Notes: generated by a model not told the origin, from the letters alone. 64,000 nucleotides of DNA from an uncultured Rickettsiales bacterium (GCA_946413485.1 CAMKKS010000001.1:4749-68748), one strand, 5' to 3'; shown: positions 600 to 42,863, counted from the stretch's first letter. Program-made: numbers and translations.

Positions 600-1556
600 A
601 TGTTTTTACATAACACAATTAGAAAATATACTCTAGCACTTTTAGATTTTTTTAACGAGGTTGAAGTTCAACACAAAGACTCGGACGGCGCTTTAATAAC
701 TCAGAAAATTCCTATATCTTATAGGAACAAAGAAAAAGAGCAGCTGATGGATAAAACCTGGCTTCAGCAGATTAAAGGGGATATGAATATTTTACCTTTA
801 GGGTCGTTATGTTTAAATTCAATTTCAAAAGCTCAAGATAGAGCAACCTCAAAATATAATCGTTTTACTAAATTAAGAGAAGATAGAACGATTGAATATA
901 TGTATAATCCAGTTCCTTATGATTTTTCTTTTGAAGTTTCATATTTTTGTAGGGGAATGAACGAAGCCTGCCAGATTATTGAAGAGATCTGTCCAAAATT
1001 TAATCCGAATGTCGCGATTGATATCTATGACTCGGAAAATCAAGACGAACCGTCAAGAATTCCTGTTCAGCTTTCTGATGTTTCTTATGAATTTTTAGGA
1101 TTTGAAGAATATTCTTTAAACCTAATAAAAGTAACTTTTTCAATAAATCTTTCAGGCTGGATGTTTCCACCGATTAAAGAATATTCTAAAATTAAAGAAT
1201 TTAACATAAATCTTTTAACACCTCAAAGAGAATCTGAGCTTCTTCATTTTGACGTGATTGACGGTTATCCGAGAATTCCACCTGATATTTTGAGAGATCC
1301 AAATCTTGAAACAAGATTGTACGTAAAAGCTTATGCTTTAACTTTAGAGAATAATATTTTAAGAGTTTCGTACGAATCAAATTCAAAAGAAAAACCTGAA
1401 ATTTCGTTTGTTTCTGATGATTGTGAAATAATTCACAAATCAAAATTTGAAAGTTTTTGTGAGATAAAAAATCCTAAAGAGAATTTTACAGTTTGTGCGA
1501 TTGTAAAAATTCAGAATGAAAGGTCAAGTATTTTAAAAACTTTTAAAAATTCTTAA
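600..1556 (+). CDS. tail sheath stabiliser / tail completion protein (T4 gp15-like)
   Basis: RKYTLALLDFFNEVEVQ..ITQKIPISYRNKEKE, YNPVPYDFSFEVSYFCRGMNEACQIIEEICPKFNP and INLSGWMFPP match my recollection of T4 gp15 (RRYATLMGDLFSNIQI..IRVPITYASKEH; YNPSPIKMIYELSIFTR..QIVEQILPYFQP; FEVNGWMYPP). Confidence 0.8.
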   Translation: MFLHNTIRKYTLALLDFFNEVEVQHKDSDGALITQKIPISYRNKEKEQLMDKTWLQQIKGDMNILPLGSLCLNSISKAQDRATSKYNRFTKLREDRTIEYMYNPVPYDFSFEVSYFCRGMNEACQIIEEICPKFNPNVAIDIYDSENQDEPSRIPVQLSDVSYEFLGFEEYSLNLIKVTFSINLSGWMFPPIKEYSKIKEFNINLLTPQRESELLHFDVIDGYPRIPPDILRDPNLETRLYVKAYALTLENNILRVSYESNSKEKPEISFVSDDCEIIHKSKFESFCEIKNPKENFTVCAIVKIQNERSSILKTFKNS

Positions 1557-5011: not shown

Positions 5012-5098
5012 TGGAGCGGGCCTCACGAGAATTGAACTCGGGCTTGATAAATCCTTTAACTAGTATATCTAAATACCAAGTAAACCATTCACCCGCAC
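5012..5098 (-). tRNA. long (type II-like) tRNA-like gene, non-canonical
   Basis: Ends ..CGAG TTCAATT CTCG TGA GGCCCGC T CCA with 5' GCGGGTG; about 85 nt. Only stem-loop in the anticodon region is GGTAT-TTAGAT-ATACT (6-nt loop, UAG centre). I could not fold a standard D arm or a 7-bp acceptor. Confidence 0.4.
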
Positions 5099-5694: not shown

Positions 5695-5763
5695 TAAGAA
5701 CTTCGGGAATTAAACCCGATCCTTCCATCAACGATGACATGCTACCAATAACACCAAGTTCCT
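5695..5763 (-). pseudogene. tRNA-like gene with truncated anticodon arm
   Basis: AGGAACT TG GTGTTATTGGTAGCAT G TCATC-GTT-GATGG AAGGA TCGGG TTTAATT CCCGA AGTTCTT; good acceptor, D and T arms but a 3-nt loop (GTT); about 68 nt; no CCA. Confidence 0.35.
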
Positions 5764-6512: not shown

Positions 6513-6924
6513 TCCTTAATTTAACGTTTTATAATCCAGTTTTAAAAACTGAATTTAATCGAATAAATAAGGTTTTTACAGAACCTTTTAACTGTTATCT
6601 ATTAAGACTCTTCTAGTCAAATTTGTATATGAACTGTTTTTTCGGAACAATAAAACCGTGTAATTTTTTACGGAAAACTACAAAACCGCTTTTTTGCAAC
6701 ATAAATCGTTGCGATTTTTACAGAACCGCAAAACTGTCATAGGTCTGTTATATCCCTTATGAATTTTGTTTTGAAATCGTTGTAGTTTTTAATGGAAAAC
6801 TACAAAACCTTCTCTTATGGTATGAATACTGTTTTTTTAACGGAACAATAAAACCGTTTTGTTTCTTTTAAAAGTTATACTTATCTTCACAATGCTATGT
6901 TAACTCTTAAAAAGAATTCGTTAA

Positions 6925-6995
6925 AGCCCCTTGACGGACTCGAACCGTCTTCTCCGGCTTGAACGCCGGTATCATAACCCATATACCAAAGGAAC
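6925..6995 (-). tRNA. non-canonical tRNA-like gene, anticodon region UUCAA (possible UCA)
   Basis: GTTCCTT TG GTAT ATGGGTTATG ATAC(C)GGC GTTCAA GCCGG AGAA GACGG TTCGAGT CCGTC AAGGGGC T; good acceptor (2 G-U) and T arm; anticodon stem CCGGC/GCCGG encloses only 6 nt; no CCA; 4 nt from tRNA-Glu. Confidence 0.45.
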
Positions 6996-6999
6996 ATAG

Positions 7000-7075
7000 T
7001 GGCGTTCCCAACGAGATTCGAACTCGTGTTACCGCCGTGAAAGGGCGATGTCCTAAACCACTAGACGATGGGAAC
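7000..7075 (-). tRNA. tRNA-Glu (anticodon UUC)
   Basis: GTTCCCA TC GTCTAGTGGTTTAGGAC A TCGCC CTTTCAC GGCGG TAAC ACGAG TTCGAAT CTCGT TGGGAAC G CCA; 76 nt. Confidence 0.9.
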
Positions 7076-7109: not shown

Positions 7110-7137
7110 ATTATATCATAATTTTATGATTTGTAAA
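7110..7137 (-). promoter_or_regulatory. sigma70-type promoter TTTACA-N16-TATAAT in front of tRNA-Glu
   Basis: Minus strand TTTACA (7137-7132), TATAAT (7115-7110); part of a roughly 60-bp repeat also at 7400-7440 and 7495-7540. Confidence 0.6.
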
Positions 7138-7169: not shown

Positions 7170-7350
7170 AAAAACACCCATAAAGACTCGAACTTTAATC
7201 TACTTCTTTTAATCTCCATCCTTGGAGGAACTTAAAGCACTTTTGCCTTGGCATTATTCTGAACAGACCCAACCATGGGGAAAATGGACTCGAACCAAAT
7301 CTACCCAAAAGCTTTAAGCATTTTCGACGTTAACCCAACTAGGTGTTTTT
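7170..7350 (-). other. two degenerate tRNA-like modules (interrupted or duplicated tRNA?)
   Basis: Two GTAGATT-x-GTTCGAGTC T-arm motifs (7185-7200, 7286-7300). 5' AACACCTA (about 7350-7343) pairs 8/8 (one G-U) with TATGGGTGTT after the distal T arm (about 7180-7171). Inner loop CTTAAAG (UAA). No single canonical cloverleaf found. Confidence 0.3.
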
Positions 7351-7408: not shown

Positions 7409-7436
7409 ATTATATCATAATTTTATGATTTGTAAA
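7409..7436 (-). promoter_or_regulatory. sigma70-type promoter copy 2 upstream of tRNA array
   Basis: TTTACA (7436-7431)-N16-TATAAT (7414-7409) on the minus strand. Confidence 0.55.
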
Positions 7437-7505: not shown

Positions 7506-7533
7506 ATTATATCATAATTTAATGATTTGTAAA
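7506..7533 (-). promoter_or_regulatory. sigma70-type promoter copy 3 upstream of tRNA array
   Basis: TTTACA (7533-7528)-N16-TATAAT (7511-7506) on the minus strand. Confidence 0.55.
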
Positions 7534-7633: not shown

Positions 7634-8296
7634 TTATTTAAAATTTACAGGCTTCTTTGTTTTTGAACCTGTGAACATTCCTTTAGTGGATTTTGTCTTA
7701 AGATCAGGCGACTTAACCCATTTATCAAGATCTTGTTTAAAGTTTGCTGCATCCATAAACATTTCAGCCATATTCCAAGCGCCTGAAACATCCCAGCCTG
7801 AAATATCGGAATTAAATTTAACCGCTAGATTAAACATATTTGAGAAGCCTCTAGCTTTCTTTGTCACATTCCACTTTGATAAATCACCGCTAAAAACAGC
7901 ATTATTATAAAACATATAATCAAACAGCTGTACATTTGAAACGTTCCATTTTGAAATATCGCCGTTGAATTTTGACTCAGCAAACATCCACGACATATCT
8001 GTCACATTTTTAGTATTCCACTTTGAGATATCACCGTTGAATTTTGAAAGATGGAACATTCCTCTCATGCTTGTAACATTTGAAACATCCCACTTTGAGA
8101 TATCACCGTTGAAGTCTTTAAATTCTTGAAACAAATATGACATATCTTTAACATTTGAAACATCAATAAAGTTTAAGTCACAATTGTTTCCTTCCTTTTC
8201 GATTGTATCTCTTATAATGATTTCCAATTTAAAACGATTTTTTGGTTTTACAGTTTCAGCTTCATTTAATGAGCTTAAAAATTCTTTAAATAACAT
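7634..8296 (-). CDS. DUF285 / BspA-type leucine-rich repeat protein with CTS-like N-terminus
   Basis: Six roughly 24-aa repeats FNGDISKW(D/N)VSNVTxMxxMF; N-terminus MLFKEFLSSLNE/AET. Confidence 0.75.
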   Translation of the reverse strand: MLFKEFLSSLNEAETVKPKNRFKLEIIIRDTIEKEGNNCDLNFIDVSNVKDMSYLFQEFKDFNGDISKWDVSNVTSMRGMFHLSKFNGDISKWNTKNVTDMSWMFAESKFNGDISKWNVSNVQLFDYMFYNNAVFSGDLSKWNVTKKARGFSNMFNLAVKFNSDISGWDVSGAWNMAEMFMDAANFKQDLDKWVKSPDLKTKSTKGMFTGSKTKKPVNFK

Positions 8297-9385: not shown

Positions 9386-9438
9386 TAAAGTGTTTTTAAA
9401 GATATCTTTATATAAGGAAATTAAAAAAATAAAAAACA

Positions 9439-9578: not shown

Positions 9579-11432
9579 TTAATAATTATTATAATAATTA
9601 TCAAAACCATCTTCTAATTGTGAAAAATCTCCAAAATCGGAATCATCATATTCAGATATTTTATTTGAAAGCTCGTAAGAATCATCGTCAAAAGAATCAA
9701 AATTTCCGATAACAAAATGCTCATAAAATTTAGATGTATCTTTACAAGCTTTTTCAGGGTCATAAAGATATGAGATAACCCATTCGATATCATCAAAATT
9801 TTTAATATCACAGAAAGGCGCAAAAATTAAAGCTAAAGACATAACCAAATCATCGTGACATCCGTCATCCGCCTGGTATTTGTCATTTTTAAGGATAAAA
9901 GTTGAAAGCTCGGAAACAGTCTCAACATCGTGTAAAATCAAAATTTCGTCGTCTAAAAATGATTTTAAAATATCTAAAATCTGCGGTCTTGTTTTTTGTG
10001 TTGTTCTAAATCCTGGTTCTAAATCTGCCATTTTTCCTTTTTTCTTTTCGTAAAAAAGATTTGGATAATCATAGCTTAATTTAAGAACGCTCGAGATATA
10101 AGTTCCTGCACCTTCGTTATTCTCAACTATGATAAAAGCATTGTTGTAAATCTCACCCCATTCAACTATAAAAACAGGCATTTTTTGGAAATTACACTTA
10201 AAAAGCTGAGCTGTCGCTACCTGTTCAAACGGTTTTGAAGTCAAATCAACAATTTGAATGGCGAAAGCATCCTCACCGGATTTTGCTGGGTCAACAGCTA
10301 AAAAATAGATATGATCTTTTTGAGGTTCTTTGTAGATTTTTAATCTTGAATCTCTTAAGTATTCAGGCTCTTTTGTTGAATTAGAAAGTTTATCCAAAGT
10401 TTCTGCTGACGGCAAAGTCAAAGAAGAACCCAAAAACGAGCATTGGTAATTTTGTAAAAAAAATTTTTCACCGTGCTTCTTAATTGTTTTTTCTTTAAAC
10501 TGTTCAGGGGTTAAAAGATTTCCTTTAGAATCGTATCTCGGTACATCTCGCCAGTTCACAAAGTGATATTTAAAACCGTTTGTTTTATTCTTTGCACCGT
10601 CAACGATTTTCTTAAAATGATTAACTCCGTTTGGTGTACTTATAATTATATTCTTTTTCCAGCCTAAAGCAGATTGTGAAGGGAAAACGGAATCTTCCAT
10701 CTCTTTCCAAACGTTCGATCTGATAAAAGCACACTCATCAATAACGAGAATCGCACAAGTAAAACCTCTGAAAGCATTCTGTCCGGGAACATCAGTCAGA
10801 ATTCTCATTTTTGATTCTGATTCTATTGAGCCTTTATTCCAAACAGTTACACCGACTCTTAACCACATCGGAAGAGCTTCAAAGATATTTTTAACATTAT
10901 TTAAAAATTCTCTTGCTAAAGGTCCTTTGTTTGCGCAAATACCTATATTCATATCACTGCCGAAATTGAATTTGTGCGCAAGGTATATTGAAACAGTTAT
11001 CGATTTTCCCGATTGACGACCTTGGAGAGAGACAATATTCTCGTCGTCACCGTCCATATCTTTTAGGAATTCCACCTGATAAGGTCTTGTTTCAGGAAAA
11101 GTATAACCGGATTTTGTGAGAATTTTAACATAGTTATCTTTAAAATACATTAAATCATTTTTACATCTTTCAATCTCTTCAAGGTGGATTTTTGAAAGCT
11201 TCATTTGAGTAAATGCTTTCTTTTGATCTCTGTTTCCGTTGTTTGAAATTTTTTCACCGAAAGCATCGAGATAAAAGTTATCTTCTGATTTTTCTGTATC
11301 TAAAATCTCTAAAGCAATATCCTTTCCTTCATTTCCGTGAGATCTCAGCTCAGCTAAAAGCTCTGATGTAATTAAATTCTTGTTTGTTTTATAATGTTGA
11401 ATAACTTCAGGTGTAAAAATATCCTTTAACAT
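9579..11432 (-). CDS. terminase large subunit (T4 gp17-like)
   Basis: 617 aa; Walker A LQGRQSGKS (T4: SRQLGKT), Walker B AILVIDECAF, C-terminal nuclease acidic motifs FLAVDPA..GED and DGCHDDLVMS. Confidence 0.9.
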   Translation of the reverse strand: MLKDIFTPEVIQHYKTNKNLITSELLAELRSHGNEGKDIALEILDTEKSEDNFYLDAFGEKISNNGNRDQKKAFTQMKLSKIHLEEIERCKNDLMYFKDNYVKILTKSGYTFPETRPYQVEFLKDMDGDDENIVSLQGRQSGKSITVSIYLAHKFNFGSDMNIGICANKGPLAREFLNNVKNIFEALPMWLRVGVTVWNKGSIESESKMRILTDVPGQNAFRGFTCAILVIDECAFIRSNVWKEMEDSVFPSQSALGWKKNIIISTPNGVNHFKKIVDGAKNKTNGFKYHFVNWRDVPRYDSKGNLLTPEQFKEKTIKKHGEKFFLQNYQCSFLGSSLTLPSAETLDKLSNSTKEPEYLRDSRLKIYKEPQKDHIYFLAVDPAKSGEDAFAIQIVDLTSKPFEQVATAQLFKCNFQKMPVFIVEWGEIYNNAFIIVENNEGAGTYISSVLKLSYDYPNLFYEKKKGKMADLEPGFRTTQKTRPQILDILKSFLDDEILILHDVETVSELSTFILKNDKYQADDGCHDDLVMSLALIFAPFCDIKNFDDIEWVISYLYDPEKACKDTSKFYEHFVIGNFDSFDDDSYELSNKISEYDDSDFGDFSQLEDGFDNYYNNY

Positions 11433-39625: not shown

Positions 39626-41023
39626 TTAAAAATCTTTTAAAATATCTTCAGGTATTTTTTCTGAAAATTCTTTTGTTTCTATCCCTGGGATTTTATCTGT
39701 TACTTTTTTAAAATCATTATAATTATCTTTAGAACATAAAACACAATTTATATTCAAATCTAAAGATATTTTATTTAACATTGTTATTAAAGAAGCTGAA
39801 GTAAATTTAAAAATCTTTATATCTTTAAATATATCTTTGATATTTTTTTCTTTTAAAGAAAAATCATCACCTTTAGGATTTAAAACACCCAAAACAACAA
39901 AATCATAATTTTTTAAAGCTTCTTTAATAATACTTTTATGATAATCTGTAATATTTAAAAATCTTCCTGGAATTAAACAACCGTTATTTCCTTCTAAGCT
40001 TTTAATTATTAACTTTTTAGCAACTTCCTGAATATCATCACAGATTTGAACAACATTCTTTTTAGCATTTTTAAAATCAGGATTGAATTTTTTAATTGCT
40101 TTTGAGAGCTCTTTTAATCTTTCATTTAAAGAACCTGAATTTATGTTTTTAATGATTTTTAAAGCTGCATTTTTAACATTCTTTTTATATTCAATTTCGT
40201 CGTCAAAATCTAAAGTAAATTTTTCTTTGATTTTAGCTCGAGCTTCCTGATCAAGCTGGTAAACCTGTTGAACTTTTAAGATTTTATCATTATATTTAAT
40301 TACAACGCCCTCTTCTTTTCCACCATACTTTGACTCAACGTTTAAAAATAATTCCTGTAATTGTTTCCACAAAACTTCAGGATCAGTCCAATCAAGGTTC
40401 ATTTTTAAATATTCTTTTTTAATATTATTATTTAAAATTCCAGCTTCAAAATCCTTTTTAGTTCCTAAAATTCCTTTGAATAATTTATTAGGAATATCGA
40501 TTTTTAAAATTTCCGCATATTTTTCACGGTCTTTAAATTCCATTTCACCAGGTGAAGTTTTTAATAATCCGAATTTTTCAGTATAAGATGTTTTTGAATA
40601 ACCAACTAAAACCATCTTATGCGGATTTTTATAATTAGAGCTTAAAGTCGGTTTACGCTGTAAAAACTCAATAGCAAATTCATAATTTAACGGTAAATCA
40701 CATTTCCCTAGATTTTTAAAGTGATCAATAACAATCTTATATTGTGAAATACCGATAGAAGATTTTTTAATAGCTAAAGTTGACTGAGACGAAAATTCGT
40801 CTTCAAAAAAGACAGAACCTTTATAAGCAATAATCCAATCATTAAAATCACCGTTATTTGCTTTATGAATAACGGTCAGTTTGGTTCCATCTGTTTTGTG
40901 TTCAATCTCAACTTCTGATTTTAAAAATTCTTCTATTTTAGATTTAGAATTTAAAAATTTTTCAGCAGATAAAATTGAAATATCAAGCTGTTTTGCTTCT
41001 TTTAAATATTTTATAAAATCCAT
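39626..41023 (-). CDS. ATP-dependent ligase (RNA/DNA ligase nucleotidyltransferase) fused to a second HIGH-motif nucleotidyltransferase domain
   Basis: Motif I HKTDGTKL (KxDG), motif IV EGVVIK, motif V KILKVQ; C-terminal CLIPGRFLNITDYHKSIIKEAL; N-terminus MDFIKYLKE/A. Confidence 0.6.
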   Translation of the reverse strand: MDFIKYLKEAKQLDISILSAEKFLNSKSKIEEFLKSEVEIEHKTDGTKLTVIHKANNGDFNDWIIAYKGSVFFEDEFSSQSTLAIKKSSIGISQYKIVIDHFKNLGKCDLPLNYEFAIEFLQRKPTLSSNYKNPHKMVLVGYSKTSYTEKFGLLKTSPGEMEFKDREKYAEILKIDIPNKLFKGILGTKKDFEAGILNNNIKKEYLKMNLDWTDPEVLWKQLQELFLNVESKYGGKEEGVVIKYNDKILKVQQVYQLDQEARAKIKEKFTLDFDDEIEYKKNVKNAALKIIKNINSGSLNERLKELSKAIKKFNPDFKNAKKNVVQICDDIQEVAKKLIIKSLEGNNGCLIPGRFLNITDYHKSIIKEALKNYDFVVLGVLNPKGDDFSLKEKNIKDIFKDIKIFKFTSASLITMLNKISLDLNINCVLCSKDNYNDFKKVTDKIPGIETKEFSEKIPEDILKDF

Positions 41024-42257: not shown

Positions 42258-42863
42258 TTAAAATCCTTTTTTAACAATATTTATACTATTCAAATATTTT
42301 TCAGTGTACTTTTTAAAATCTTTATCTGAAATTTCAACAGGATAAAAATCATTTTCGGGGTTGTCAACGCAAACGTTTATTCTTGGAACTTCATTATCCG
42401 TAGGGGATTTTTCATGTGTATGGCCGTGGAAAATCATCAAACAATTTGACTCATCAAAAATCTGTCTTAATCCTTTCATTTTAGGATCCATTATCTGATT
42501 TTCATTTAACGGATAATGGCAAAGAAAATAATCCCCTAAAATGATATAATCTTCAACAGCTAAAAATCCGCACTCTAAATAAAAAGAGTCAGGAAATTTA
42601 TCGTGATTTCCTCGGATTAAAATCTTTTTCCCTTTAAGATTTTTAAGAATTGTTTTAAACATATCTTTATTTGTTTTATTTAAAAAAGCAATATCCCCTA
42701 GGTGAAAAACAATATCGTCGTCAGATACTTTTTCGTTATATCTTTCAAAGATTGTTTTAATACAGTCAATAACGCCTTCTGAAGAAAAATCAAACGGACG
42801 GTTACAGTATTTAATAATATTTTGATGGCCAAAATGCTGGTCGGAAGTTAAAAATATTTTCAT
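42258..42863 (-). CDS. calcineurin-like metallophosphoesterase
   Basis: SDQHFGH, LGDIAF, RGNHDK, CHYP, FHGHTH: the full MPP motif set. Confidence 0.8.
   Translation of the reverse strand: MKIFLTSDQHFGHQNIIKYCNRPFDFSSEGVIDCIKTIFERYNEKVSDDDIVFHLGDIAFLNKTNKDMFKTILKNLKGKKILIRGNHDKFPDSFYLECGFLAVEDYIILGDYFLCHYPLNENQIMDPKMKGLRQIFDESNCLMIFHGHTHEKSPTDNEVPRINVCVDNPENDFYPVEISDKDFKKYTEKYLNSINIVKKGF

What the first reader, a model, noticed from the sequence alone, without database searches (positions are those of the whole stretch)
6925..6995. tRNA-like gene with a UUCAA anticodon region (possible UCA, opal-reading) and a 6-nt loop
**Structure.** Four nucleotides from tRNA-Glu lies a 71-nt gene with a good acceptor stem, a 4-bp D stem and a perfect T arm (GACGG TTCGAGT CCGTC). 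The anticodon stem CCGGC/GCCGG encloses only GTTCAA. If the inner C-G pair opens, the loop is CGUUCAAG (8 nt). U-UCA-A matches the U33-anticodon-A37 layout of a UGA-reading (suppressor, Sec or Trp-UCA-like) tRNA. No CCA is encoded, unlike its neighbours.

**Context.** TGA is used as an ordinary stop in this window (for example 1650, 2990, 38553, 19338), and all conserved structural genes are intact in the standard code. Genome-wide recoding is therefore unlikely.

**Options.** Programmed read-through of selected TGA stops, a frameshift-prone tRNA, a decoy, or a decaying pseudogene.
Basis: seen in the sequence. Interest (0 to 1): 0.6.

Follow-up and report, generated by a model that had tools for sequence, protein, structure and literature searches.

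The report
Phage tRNA look-alike with short anticodon loop
A rumen T4-like phage carries, four bases behind its glutamate tRNA gene, a conserved tRNA-shaped gene whose decoding loop is one base too short; it is most likely a non-decoding offshoot of the glutamate tRNA, not a reader of the stop codon UGA.

Summary
ARAGORN and Infernal both call a 71-nt cloverleaf at 6925-6995 (minus strand). It has a 5-bp anticodon stem closing a 6-nt loop (GUUCAA), a perfect T arm, a weak D arm and no encoded CCA. It lies 4 nt after tRNA-Glu(UUC) and behind a near-consensus sigma-70 promoter.

It scores 31.1 bits; the other 49 tRNAs of the assembly score 51.6-76.7. The contig is a T4-like myovirus from ruminant gut, binned into a ~0.95-Mb MAG.

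One orthologue was found, on metagenome contig L006. It also has a 6-nt loop and differs at 2 of 71 positions: U2 to C2, which turns a G.U pair into G-C, and loop GUUCAA to GCUCAA. Nearby spacer DNA is unalignable.

Its nearest tRNA is the adjacent phage tRNA-Glu. The same array holds a second loop-shortened paralogue (5695-5763, tRNA-Trp-derived, 3-nt loop), also conserved in L006.

I found no sign of UGA read-through in about 150 kb of this phage.

Best reading: a non-decoding tRNA-Glu paralogue kept as a tRNA-shaped RNA (RNase P processing module and/or tRNA mimic). A young pseudogene is the main rival. A UGA suppressor is unlikely.

Earlier notes of this scan describe similar anticodon-defective tRNA look-alikes in other phages.

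The parts
6925..6995 (-). 71-nt tRNA-shaped gene with a 6-nt anticodon loop (GUUCAA), no encoded CCA and discriminator U
   Evidence: ARAGORN. Infernal 31.1 bits. Minimum-energy cloverleaf. Orthologue L006:6517-6587 is 69/71 identical.
6996..6999 (-). 4-nt spacer CUAU between the CCA end of tRNA-Glu and the 5' end of the look-alike (UUAU in L006)
   Evidence: Read directly from the sequence.
7000..7075 (-). Canonical tRNA-Glu(UUC) with encoded CCA. It is the upstream partner in the same transcription unit and the closest paralogue.
   Evidence: ARAGORN. Infernal 62.3 bits. Best pairwise match to the look-alike: 51/71, score 17 against a mean of 4.9 and sd 3.5 over the ARAGORN-called tRNAs of G000 and the fetched loci.
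7110..7137 (-). Promoter-like site TTTACA-16 nt-TATAAT with a TG extension (11 of 12 consensus matches), about 35 nt upstream of tRNA-Glu
   Evidence: Promoter scan. The same 28-mer recurs at 7409-7436 and 7506-7533, and variants of it on contigs C2 and C35.
6862..6924 (-). 3' flank, about 90% identical in L006. It begins UUAACG and has no clear intrinsic terminator.
   Evidence: Alignment. Fold.
5695..5763 (-). Sibling non-decoder: a cloverleaf with a 5-bp 'anticodon' stem closing a 3-nt loop (GUU). Its 5' half is nearly identical to the phage tRNA-Trp.
   Evidence: Fold. Best match is phage tRNA-Trp: score 16 against a mean of 4.1 and sd 2.8. 68/69 identical in L006. Not called by ARAGORN or Rfam.

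Best explanation
The gene is a diverged paralogue of the phage's own tRNA-Glu(UUC). Its anticodon loop has lost one base (most simply, the UUU run shrank to UU), so it can no longer present a normal anticodon.

It is probably transcribed together with tRNA-Glu from the strong promoter at 7110-7137. Its intact acceptor and T-arm 'top half' should still be recognised by RNase P. A cut at its 5' end would leave tRNA-Glu-CCA with only a 4-nt trailer.

The released 71-nt RNA is a tRNA mimic that does not decode. I take it to be kept for that shape, as a processing module for tRNA-Glu and/or as a mimic that occupies a tRNA-binding host factor such as an anticodon nuclease.

Shown: the structure, the 6-nt loop in two phages, conservation, the closest relative, the promoter-like site, and the lack of UGA targets. 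Inferred: transcription, RNase P cleavage, non-decoding, and any decoy role.
For: 1. The cloverleaf with a 6-nt loop is called by two programs and is the minimum-energy fold.

2. The orthologue in L006 is 69/71 identical and keeps the 6-nt loop. Both changes spare the structure: U2.G71 becomes C2-G71, and one change lies in the loop. By comparison, tRNA-Lys and tRNA-Thr of the two arrays are only 63/79 and 60/77 identical, and the spacer at 6720-6860 is unalignable. The chance of 2 or fewer changes in 71 nt is 0.007 at 12% divergence and 0.02 at 10%.

3. G+C is 53.5%, like tRNA-Glu (53.9%), against 12-26% in the flanks and 29% in the window. That is not what decaying DNA in an AT-rich phage should look like.

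4. The closest tRNA is the adjacent tRNA-Glu. They share the 5' GUUCC, a similar anticodon stem and a 4-nt variable region.

5. The one loop change sits among 6 loop bases, against one change in the other 65 bases. That fits a loop under relaxed constraint and a constrained body.

6. A second, independent paralogue in the same array (5695-5763, tRNA-Trp-derived) also has a shortened loop (3 nt), an intact cloverleaf and 68/69 identity in L006.

7. A distant T4-like relative (G401) carries a 67-nt tRNA-like gene without an anticodon stem in its array.

8. U precedes the predicted RNase P cut site, and the look-alike starts 4 nt after the CCA of tRNA-Glu.
Against: - Only two genomes carry it, and they are 81-91% identical overall. 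There has been little time for a dead gene to decay.
- The 60 nt downstream are also about 90% conserved, so the cassette may simply be young or recently exchanged.
- The D stem has mismatches, the acceptor has two G.U pairs, and the Infernal score is 20 bits below every other tRNA of the assembly. This could be early decay.
- There are no RNA data.
- RNase P does not need the anticodon stem, so the processing model does not explain why that stem is perfect.
- No host nuclease or binding partner is identified.
Confidence: 0.45

Rival explanations
1. Young pseudogene. A tandem duplicate of tRNA-Glu was inactivated by a 1-nt slip in the U run of its anticodon loop shortly before the two known phages diverged. 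It survives only because it sits 4 nt from an essential tRNA inside a conserved cassette, and it has no function of its own.
For: It has the lowest Infernal score of 50 tRNA hits, 31.1 against at least 51.6. The D stem is mismatched, the acceptor has two G.U pairs, and it lacks CCA while all six canonical neighbours encode it. Only two closely related carriers are known. The immediate 3' flank is also conserved, so conservation may be hitch-hiking. Low-scoring or defective tRNA genes occur at a few per cent in related phage arrays: 4 of 66 hits scored under 40 bits.
Against: G+C of 53.5% is kept in a 29% G+C genome. Both substitutions spare the structure. The T arm and anticodon stem are perfect. 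A second independent paralogue in the same array was also disabled specifically in its anticodon loop and is likewise conserved. Array content otherwise turns over between the two phages: Trp, Leu, Pro and a CAT cassette differ. Yet this element is retained.
Confidence: 0.3
2. It still decodes. Either it is an unusual tRNA-Glu isoacceptor (UUC here, CUC in L006) whose altered loop makes it resistant to a host anticodon nuclease, or it is a shift-prone tRNA that promotes frameshifting at particular sites.
For: Both versions of the loop contain a Glu anticodon triplet (UUC, CUC), so the only loop difference is synonymous under that reading. It is the closest relative of tRNA-Glu. The MAG encodes a CCA-adding-enzyme family protein, and about half of its own tRNA genes lack CCA, so a CCA-less gene can be matured if that MAG is the host. 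Phage tRNAs with anticodon-loop changes that evade tRNA-targeting defences are documented (PMC10264068, PMC11464382, PMC11555353; titles and abstracts only).
Against: A 6-nt loop cannot hold the usual 32-33 / anticodon / 37-38 layout; one flank is missing. From my own knowledge, no natural 6-nt-loop decoder is established. A review lists only enlarged loops among the rare natural exceptions and says none of those is known to cause frameshifting (PMC5009743). No frameshifted or split core gene was noticed among the structural genes examined, but this was not searched systematically. Weak D arm.
Confidence: 0.13
3. UGA (opal) suppressor or Sec/Trp-UCA-like tRNA that reads selected TGA stops.
For: The triplet UCA, preceded by U and followed by A, is present in the window's loop. 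ARAGORN lists SeC as one of two possible readings.
Against: - The loop is 6 nt, and in L006 the base before UCA is C, not U.
- It has no Sec features: 7/5 acceptor/T stems and a 4-nt variable region.
- TGA ends 6 of 87 ORFs on C1, with extensions of only 1-42 codons.
- Of five places where TGA separates two open stretches of at least 60 codons in about 150 kb, three lie on the plus strand, opposite to nearly all long ORFs. One minus-strand case translates to junk, and the other is a short ORF followed by a separate ATG-started gene.
- The rest of the MAG uses TGA and TAG as stops about equally and has only tRNA-Trp(CCA).
Confidence: 0.04

Closest known systems
Defective or 'undetermined' tRNA genes and stable tRNA-like RNAs in phage tRNA clusters (for example T4 species 1 and 2 RNAs, rnaC and rnaD; tRNA-like RNAs of T5)
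   Same: It lies inside the tRNA array of a T4-like myovirus, is about the size of a tRNA, is tRNA-derived, has no decoding role that can be assigned, and is co-transcribed with real tRNAs.
   Different: No sequence relation to the T4 or T5 RNAs was tested or found; blastn of the 71-mer against 50,697 phage records gave only weak tRNA matches. Here the RNA is a full cloverleaf that differs from a real tRNA mainly by one missing loop base. My knowledge of the T4 and T5 RNAs is from memory.
tRNA-like processing elements: plant mitochondrial t-elements, and mascRNA at the 3' end of MALAT1
   Same: A tRNA-shaped fold without a working anticodon, placed directly after another RNA. An RNase P cut at its 5' end would create the 3' end of the upstream RNA. 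The acceptor and T-arm half is intact.
   Different: Those are eukaryotic or organellar. This one follows a tRNA that already encodes CCA. Cleavage is not shown. This one keeps a perfect 5-bp anticodon stem.
Phage tRNAs with anticodon-loop changes that escape tRNA-targeting defences (PMC10264068; T5 tRNA-Lys versus PARIS, PMC11464382; tRNA-Tyr versus retron effectors, PMC11555353)
   Same: A phage-encoded paralogue of a tRNA whose anticodon loop departs from the norm. The array carries Lys-UUU, Glu-UUC and Gln-UUG, isoacceptors that I recall as typical nuclease targets.
   Different: Those tRNAs keep a 7-nt loop and still decode. Here the loop length is changed, which should abolish normal decoding. 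No defence system or nuclease is identified here.
Loop-size mutant tRNAs that cause frameshifting (8- to 10-nt loops), and doublet decoding by E. coli tRNA-Ser3 (PMC12202706)
   Same: Non-standard anticodon loop geometry.
   Different: Known shifty tRNAs have enlarged or normal loops, not 6-nt loops. No frameshift site was found that would need this RNA.
Opal suppressor tRNAs and tRNA-Sec
   Same: The letters U-UCA-A occur in the loop of the window copy.
   Different: The loop is 6 nt, L006 has C-UCA-A, the arm lengths are not those of tRNA-Sec, and no TGA targets were found.

Membership tests
Canonical elongator tRNA (Rfam RF00005) | Cloverleaf with 7-bp acceptor, 5-bp anticodon stem and 5-bp T stem; score above the gathering threshold | tested here: met
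   31.1 bits against a gathering score of 29. ARAGORN drawing. Minimum-energy fold. It is 20 bits below all 49 other tRNAs of the assembly.
Canonical elongator tRNA (Rfam RF00005) | 7-nt anticodon loop with U33, a 3-nt anticodon and a purine at 37 | tested here: not met
   6-nt loop GUUCAA here and GCUCAA in L006. The only 7-nt register (UUCAAGC, anticodon CAA, from ARAGORN's mitochondrial mode) needs a stem with only 2 contiguous pairs.
Canonical elongator tRNA (Rfam RF00005) | Conserved tertiary nucleotides: U8, A14, G18-G19, T54-Psi55-C56, A58, G53-C61 | tested here: met
   Read from the sequence as aligned by Infernal and ARAGORN: U8, A14, a GGG run in the D loop, T loop UUCGAGU, and a G-C pair closing the T stem.
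Canonical elongator tRNA (Rfam RF00005) | 3' CCA (encoded or added) and aminoacylation | not testable with these tools
   CCA is not encoded. The MAG has a CCA-adding-enzyme family gene. Addition and charging need RNA data.
tRNA-Glu family (paralogue) | Closest in sequence to tRNA-Glu; 4-nt variable region; YUC triplet in the loop | tested here: met
   Best match is the adjacent phage tRNA-Glu, 51/71, z about 3.5; host tRNA-Glu is also among the top matches. Variable region AGAA against UAAC. UUC here and CUC in L006. The similarity lies mostly in the 5' half and the anticodon stem; the T stems differ.
tRNA-Glu family (paralogue) | GluRS identity set as known for E. coli: U2-A71, U34 U35 C36 A37 in a normal loop, augmented D helix | tested here: inconclusive
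   The 2-71 pair is U.G here and C-G in L006. The D helix is mismatched and the loop is one base short. The identity rules of the unknown host are not known. The E. coli rules are from memory.
Opal suppressor tRNA / tRNA-Sec | UCA anticodon in a 7-nt loop. For Sec also 8/5 or 9/4 acceptor/T stems and a long variable arm. | tested here: not met
   6-nt loop, 7/5 stems, 4-nt variable region.
Opal suppressor tRNA / tRNA-Sec | In-frame TGA codons, or conserved extensions after TGA stops, in the same genome | tested here: not met
   over contigs C1, C2 and C35 (about 150 kb of an estimated 178 kb).
Frameshift-suppressor tRNA | Enlarged (8-nt or longer) anticodon loop with a 4-base anticodon, and genes that need a shift | tested here: not met
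   An 8-nt loop arises only if the closing C-G pair opens. It would then lack U33 in the standard place. No split core gene was noticed, but the frameshift search was not systematic.
tRNA-like processing element (t-element / mascRNA type) | Intact acceptor and T-arm half, defective anticodon region, placed directly 3' of another RNA | tested here: met
   it starts 4 nt after the CCA of tRNA-Glu.
tRNA-like processing element (t-element / mascRNA type) | Cleavage by RNase P or RNase Z in vivo | not testable with these tools
   Read laying failed. No RNA ends are available.

The most novel reading that the evidence does not exclude
This phage lineage deliberately keeps anticodon-disabled copies of its own tRNAs. 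There are at least two independent cases: a Glu-derived copy with a 6-nt loop and a Trp-derived copy with a 3-nt loop. These tRNA mimics would either sequester a host tRNA-targeting defence nuclease or tRNA-modifying enzyme, or serve as built-in RNase P cutting modules that mature the neighbouring functional tRNAs. That would make them a dedicated class of non-decoding 'tRNA decoys' in phage tRNA arrays.
Probability: 0.3. Interest if true: 0.7.

Novelty: new member of a known kind. Interest (0 to 1): 0.35.

Why it matters
Phage tRNA arrays are now seen as counter-measures against bacterial defences that cut tRNAs. This array holds canonical tRNAs next to tRNA-shaped genes that were disabled specifically in the anticodon loop and yet are conserved.

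If these are kept by selection, they point to one of two roles. They could be decoys, or they could be RNase P processing modules that release the neighbouring functional tRNAs. Either could be tested with simple RNA-end mapping and nuclease assays.

If this one is only a young pseudogene, it is ordinary. Either way, it should not be annotated as a suppressor tRNA, and it gives no support for stop-codon recoding in this phage.

Tried and rejected
**Searches for more orthologues**
- An exact pattern for the anticodon arm plus T arm found nothing in IMG/VR. It found one contig (L006) in the JGI metagenomes.
- A pattern for the 3' half of tRNA-Glu found nothing in IMG/VR.
- blastn of the 71-mer against 50,697 phage records gave only weak matches to unrelated tRNAs. 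The best was Mx1 tRNA-Gly at 73.8% over 65 nt, E 0.06.
- An early idea that the gene derives from tRNA-Gly(UCC) was dropped once local alignments put tRNA-Glu first.
- Loci anchored on the large terminase (TerL): 77 in IMG/VR and 9 in GTDB genomes. None has an odd-loop tRNA.
- A TerL search of 401 genomes of the host's order found one distant hit only.
The many close TerL relatives seen only as proteins (97-99%, 78% and 60% identity) could therefore not be fetched.
There is therefore no read-level check, no RNA ends and no expression evidence.
- Runs that hold the stretch come from sheep, cattle and goat gut.

**Alternative loop registers**
- The 8-nt loop (inner C-G pair open) and the 7-nt loop UUCAAGC with anticodon CAA (ARAGORN mitochondrial mode) were rejected. 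Both require giving up a perfect 5-bp G+C-rich stem.

**UGA recoding and context**
- Searches were negative.
- Small ORFs around the array gave no informative family.
Ligase-type motifs (KTDG, EGVVIK, KILKV) are visible in the translation.

Full report
**What is there**

ARAGORN finds seven tRNA genes on the minus strand between 4759 and 7075. Six are canonical: Gln-UUG, Trp-CCA, Asn-GUU, Thr-UGU, Lys-UUU and Glu-UUC. The seventh, at 6925-6995, is reported as 'tRNA-???' with a two-base anticodon 'tc'.

The detailed drawing labels it '?(Glu|SeC)'. It shows:
- a 7-bp acceptor stem with two G.U pairs;
- a poor D stem (one Watson-Crick pair, one G.U, one G:A);
- a perfect anticodon stem CCGGC/GCCGG closing the 6-nt loop GUUCAA;
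- a 4-nt variable region;
- a perfect T arm (GACGG, UUCGAGU, CCGUC);
- discriminator U.

Infernal scores it 31.1 bits, just above the Rfam tRNA threshold of 29. Its six neighbours score 61.5-68.9. Across the whole assembly the other 49 tRNAs score 51.6-76.7, so this is the single outlier. RNAfold gives the same cloverleaf with the 6-nt loop as the minimum-energy structure.

The gene starts 4 nt (CUAU) after the encoded CCA of tRNA-Glu. All six canonical array members encode CCA; this one is followed by UUAACG.

**Where it sits**

The window is part of contig C1 (79.7 kb, 29.5% G+C) of a 0.95-Mb, 88-contig MAG. C1 encodes a T4-type large terminase (TerL), portal, major head protein, tail sheath, baseplate parts and a gp15-like protein. 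It is therefore a T4-like myovirus contig binned with a small bacterial genome.

- The nearest cultured phages share only about 51% TerL identity (Vibrio phages) or 42-45% (Campylobacter phages).
- An exact copy of TerL lies on a 178.7-kb contig elsewhere, which I take as the likely genome size.
- Contigs C2 (61.6 kb) and C35 (8.4 kb) carry close variants of the same promoter 28-mer, so I treat them as parts of the same phage.
- The rest of the MAG has its own tRNA set with tRNA-Trp(CCA) and no UCA tRNA. It uses TAG and TGA as stops about equally.
- Sequencing runs that hold the stretch come from sheep, cattle and goat gut.

A near-consensus promoter-like site (TTTACA, 16 nt, TATAAT, with TG before the second hexamer; 11 of 12 consensus matches) lies at 7137-7110, about 35 nt before tRNA-Glu. 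Two more copies lie at 7436-7409 and 7533-7506. tRNA-Glu and the look-alike therefore most likely form one short transcription unit. This is inferred, not shown.

**A second copy**

A pattern search found one related metagenome contig, L006 (12.1 kb). It is 81-91% identical to the window where it aligns at all.

- It has the same pair of genes: tRNA-Glu, a 4-nt spacer (UUAU), then the look-alike at 6517-6587. ARAGORN again calls it with a 'tc' anticodon and a 6-nt loop, at 33.8 bits.
- The two look-alikes differ at 2 of 71 positions. U2 becomes C2, which turns the U2.G71 wobble into a Watson-Crick pair. The loop GUUCAA becomes GCUCAA.
- tRNA-Glu differs at 1 of 76 positions and tRNA-Asn at 2 of 79. 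The Lys and Thr genes of the two arrays are only 63/79 and 60/77 identical. The spacer at 6720-6860 cannot be aligned.
- With 10-12% background divergence, two or fewer changes in 71 nt has a probability of 0.02-0.007.
- The look-alike is 53.5% G+C, like tRNA-Glu. Its flanks are 12-26%.

The 6-nt loop is thus a real, inherited feature, and the body of the RNA looks constrained. The caveats are serious. There are only two carriers, they are close relatives, and the 60 nt downstream are also about 90% conserved.

**What it derives from**

I aligned the element against the ARAGORN-called tRNAs of the assembly and the fetched loci. It matches the adjacent phage tRNA-Glu best: 51 of 71, score 17 against a mean of 4.9 and sd 3.5. 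The host tRNA-Glu is also near the top.

Shared features are the 5' GUUCC, the D-loop GGUU(U)A, a similar G+C-rich anticodon stem and the 4-nt variable region. The simplest origin is a duplicate of tRNA-Glu in which the UUU run of the loop (CUUUCAC) shrank by one U.

The single loop difference between the two phages can be read three ways.
- Under the UCA reading it replaces U33 by C, which a working tRNA should not tolerate.
- Under a Glu reading it is UUC to CUC, which is synonymous.
- If the loop does not decode, it is simply neutral.

One change in 6 loop bases against one in the 65 others fits relaxed constraint on the loop.

**Is it a UGA reader?**

I found nothing in favour beyond the letters UCA.
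- On C1, 87 ORFs end in TAA (78), TGA (6) or TAG (3). The six TGA-terminated ORFs have in-frame extensions of 1-42 codons.
- In C1, C2 and C35 together, TGA separates two open stretches of at least 60 codons at five places. Three are on the plus strand, opposite to nearly all long ORFs. One minus-strand case translates to junk. The other is a short ORF followed by a separate ATG-started gene.
- The arm lengths and variable region rule out tRNA-Sec.

About 30 kb of the phage is unseen, so rare targets cannot be excluded. I put this reading at about 4%.

**Siblings in the same array**

Earlier notes of this scan on the same window pointed to other odd elements. I checked the most relevant.
- 5695-5763 (minus strand) folds into a cloverleaf whose 'anticodon' arm is a 5-bp stem closing a 3-nt loop. 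Its best match is the phage tRNA-Trp, with a nearly identical 5' half (score 16 against a mean of 4.1 and sd 2.8). It is 68/69 identical in L006. Neither ARAGORN nor Rfam calls it.
- A 174-nt element at 7173-7346 has a tRNA acceptor stem and T arm and its own promoter copy.
- L006 has an extra low-scoring tRNA(CAT) cassette that the window lacks (39 bits).
- In a distant T4-like relative (G401, 205 kb) a 67-nt tRNA-like gene lacks an anticodon stem. In five such relatives, 4 of 66 tRNA hits score under 40 bits.

Two independent paralogues, both disabled in the anticodon loop, both keeping the rest of the cloverleaf and both conserved, look more like a pattern than like random decay.

**How it most likely works**

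I favour a non-decoding tRNA-shaped RNA kept for its shape (confidence 0.45). The acceptor and T-arm half, which RNase P, RNase Z and the CCA-adding enzyme recognise (general knowledge), is intact. U precedes the predicted RNase P site. A cut there would free tRNA-Glu-CCA with a 4-nt trailer.

That gives the look-alike a plausible job as a processing module, as with t-elements or mascRNA. It may also act as a mimic that occupies a tRNA-binding factor. The array is rich in isoacceptors that known anticodon nucleases attack, and phage tRNAs are documented counter-measures to such defences (PMC10264068, PMC11464382, PMC11555353; abstracts seen).

The phage also encodes a metallophosphoesterase beside a protein with ligase-type motifs. 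This context is only partly verified.

The main rival (0.30) is a young pseudogene hitch-hiking on tRNA-Glu. A still-decoding Glu or shift-prone tRNA gets 0.13. A review notes that natural exceptions to the standard anticodon-loop size are few, are enlarged loops, and are not known to cause frameshifting (PMC5009743).

**Limits**

I could therefore neither fetch the many close relatives seen as proteins nor examine RNA ends or expression. With two sequences, covariation cannot be tested.

**Verdict**

This is a real, conserved, non-canonical tRNA-Glu paralogue with a 6-nt anticodon loop. It is not a suppressor. It is a new member of the known class of defective or tRNA-like genes in phage tRNA arrays, and it has modest interest on its own. 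Interest rises if the array's several anticodon-disabled look-alikes prove to be selected mimics. Earlier notes of this scan describe comparable anticodon-defective tRNA look-alikes in other phages.

Noticed in passing
window 5695-5763 (-): A tRNA-Trp-derived cloverleaf whose anticodon arm is a 5-bp stem closing a 3-nt loop (GUU). It is not called by ARAGORN or Rfam. It is 68/69 identical in L006 and is followed by a long hairpin plus a T run.
   Followed up: partly
window 7173-7346 (-): A 174-nt element with a 7-8 bp tRNA-type acceptor pairing and a perfect T arm (UAAAG, UUCGAGU, CUUUA), behind its own copy of the strong promoter. Its 3' half is conserved in L006. It could be an interrupted or elongated tRNA-like RNA.
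   Followed up: partly
window 5012-5098 (-): An 87-nt element with a G+C-rich acceptor, T loop UUCAAUU and encoded CCA. It does not fold as a canonical tRNA and has no clear closest isotype.
   Followed up: partly
L006:6243-6313 (+): An extra promoter-plus-tRNA(CAT) cassette in the related phage, absent from the window. It scores 39 bits and ARAGORN misses it. The content of the array turns over between close relatives: the window has Trp, while L006 has Leu-UAA and Pro-UGG.
   Followed up: partly
window 7110-7137, 7409-7436, 7506-7533 (-); also G000 contigs C2 and C35: A repeated 28-nt promoter-like sequence (TTTACA, 16 nt, TATAAT with TG). Close variants on C2 and C35 suggest that at least 150 kb of the 0.95-Mb MAG is DNA of this phage, that is, binning contamination.
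   Followed up: partly
window, many intergenic sites (for example near 9430, 11550, 22700, 27110, 34000, 43200, 51400, 57200): A dispersed intergenic repeat of roughly 50-150 nt. Several L006 segments each match it many times across the window (blastn table). It may be a repeated promoter or terminator module.
   Followed up: no
window 39626-41023 (-) and 42258-42863 (-): A metallophosphoesterase (Pfam, PHROG) lies two genes upstream of a 465-aa protein with ligase-type motifs (KTDG, EGVVIK, KILKV) that has no Pfam, NCBIfam or PDB sequence match.
   Followed up: partly
window 9579-11432 (-) and relatives P0036, P0051: Some close TerL relatives (89-97% identical) are about 890-900 aa long and carry an intein domain (PF14890). 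The window's TerL lacks it.
   Followed up: no
L096 (G401:C1:128600-138000), positions 737-812 (-) and 1232-1298 (-): A distant 205-kb T4-like relative has a 30-tRNA array. It includes a tRNA with anticodon CUA (an amber-suppressor type, which ARAGORN labels 'Pyl') and a 67-nt tRNA-like gene without an anticodon stem.
   Followed up: no
window 7634-8296 (-): A DUF285 (Mycoplasma-type repeat) protein is encoded immediately upstream of the tRNA promoters (Pfam E 3e-50).
   Followed up: no
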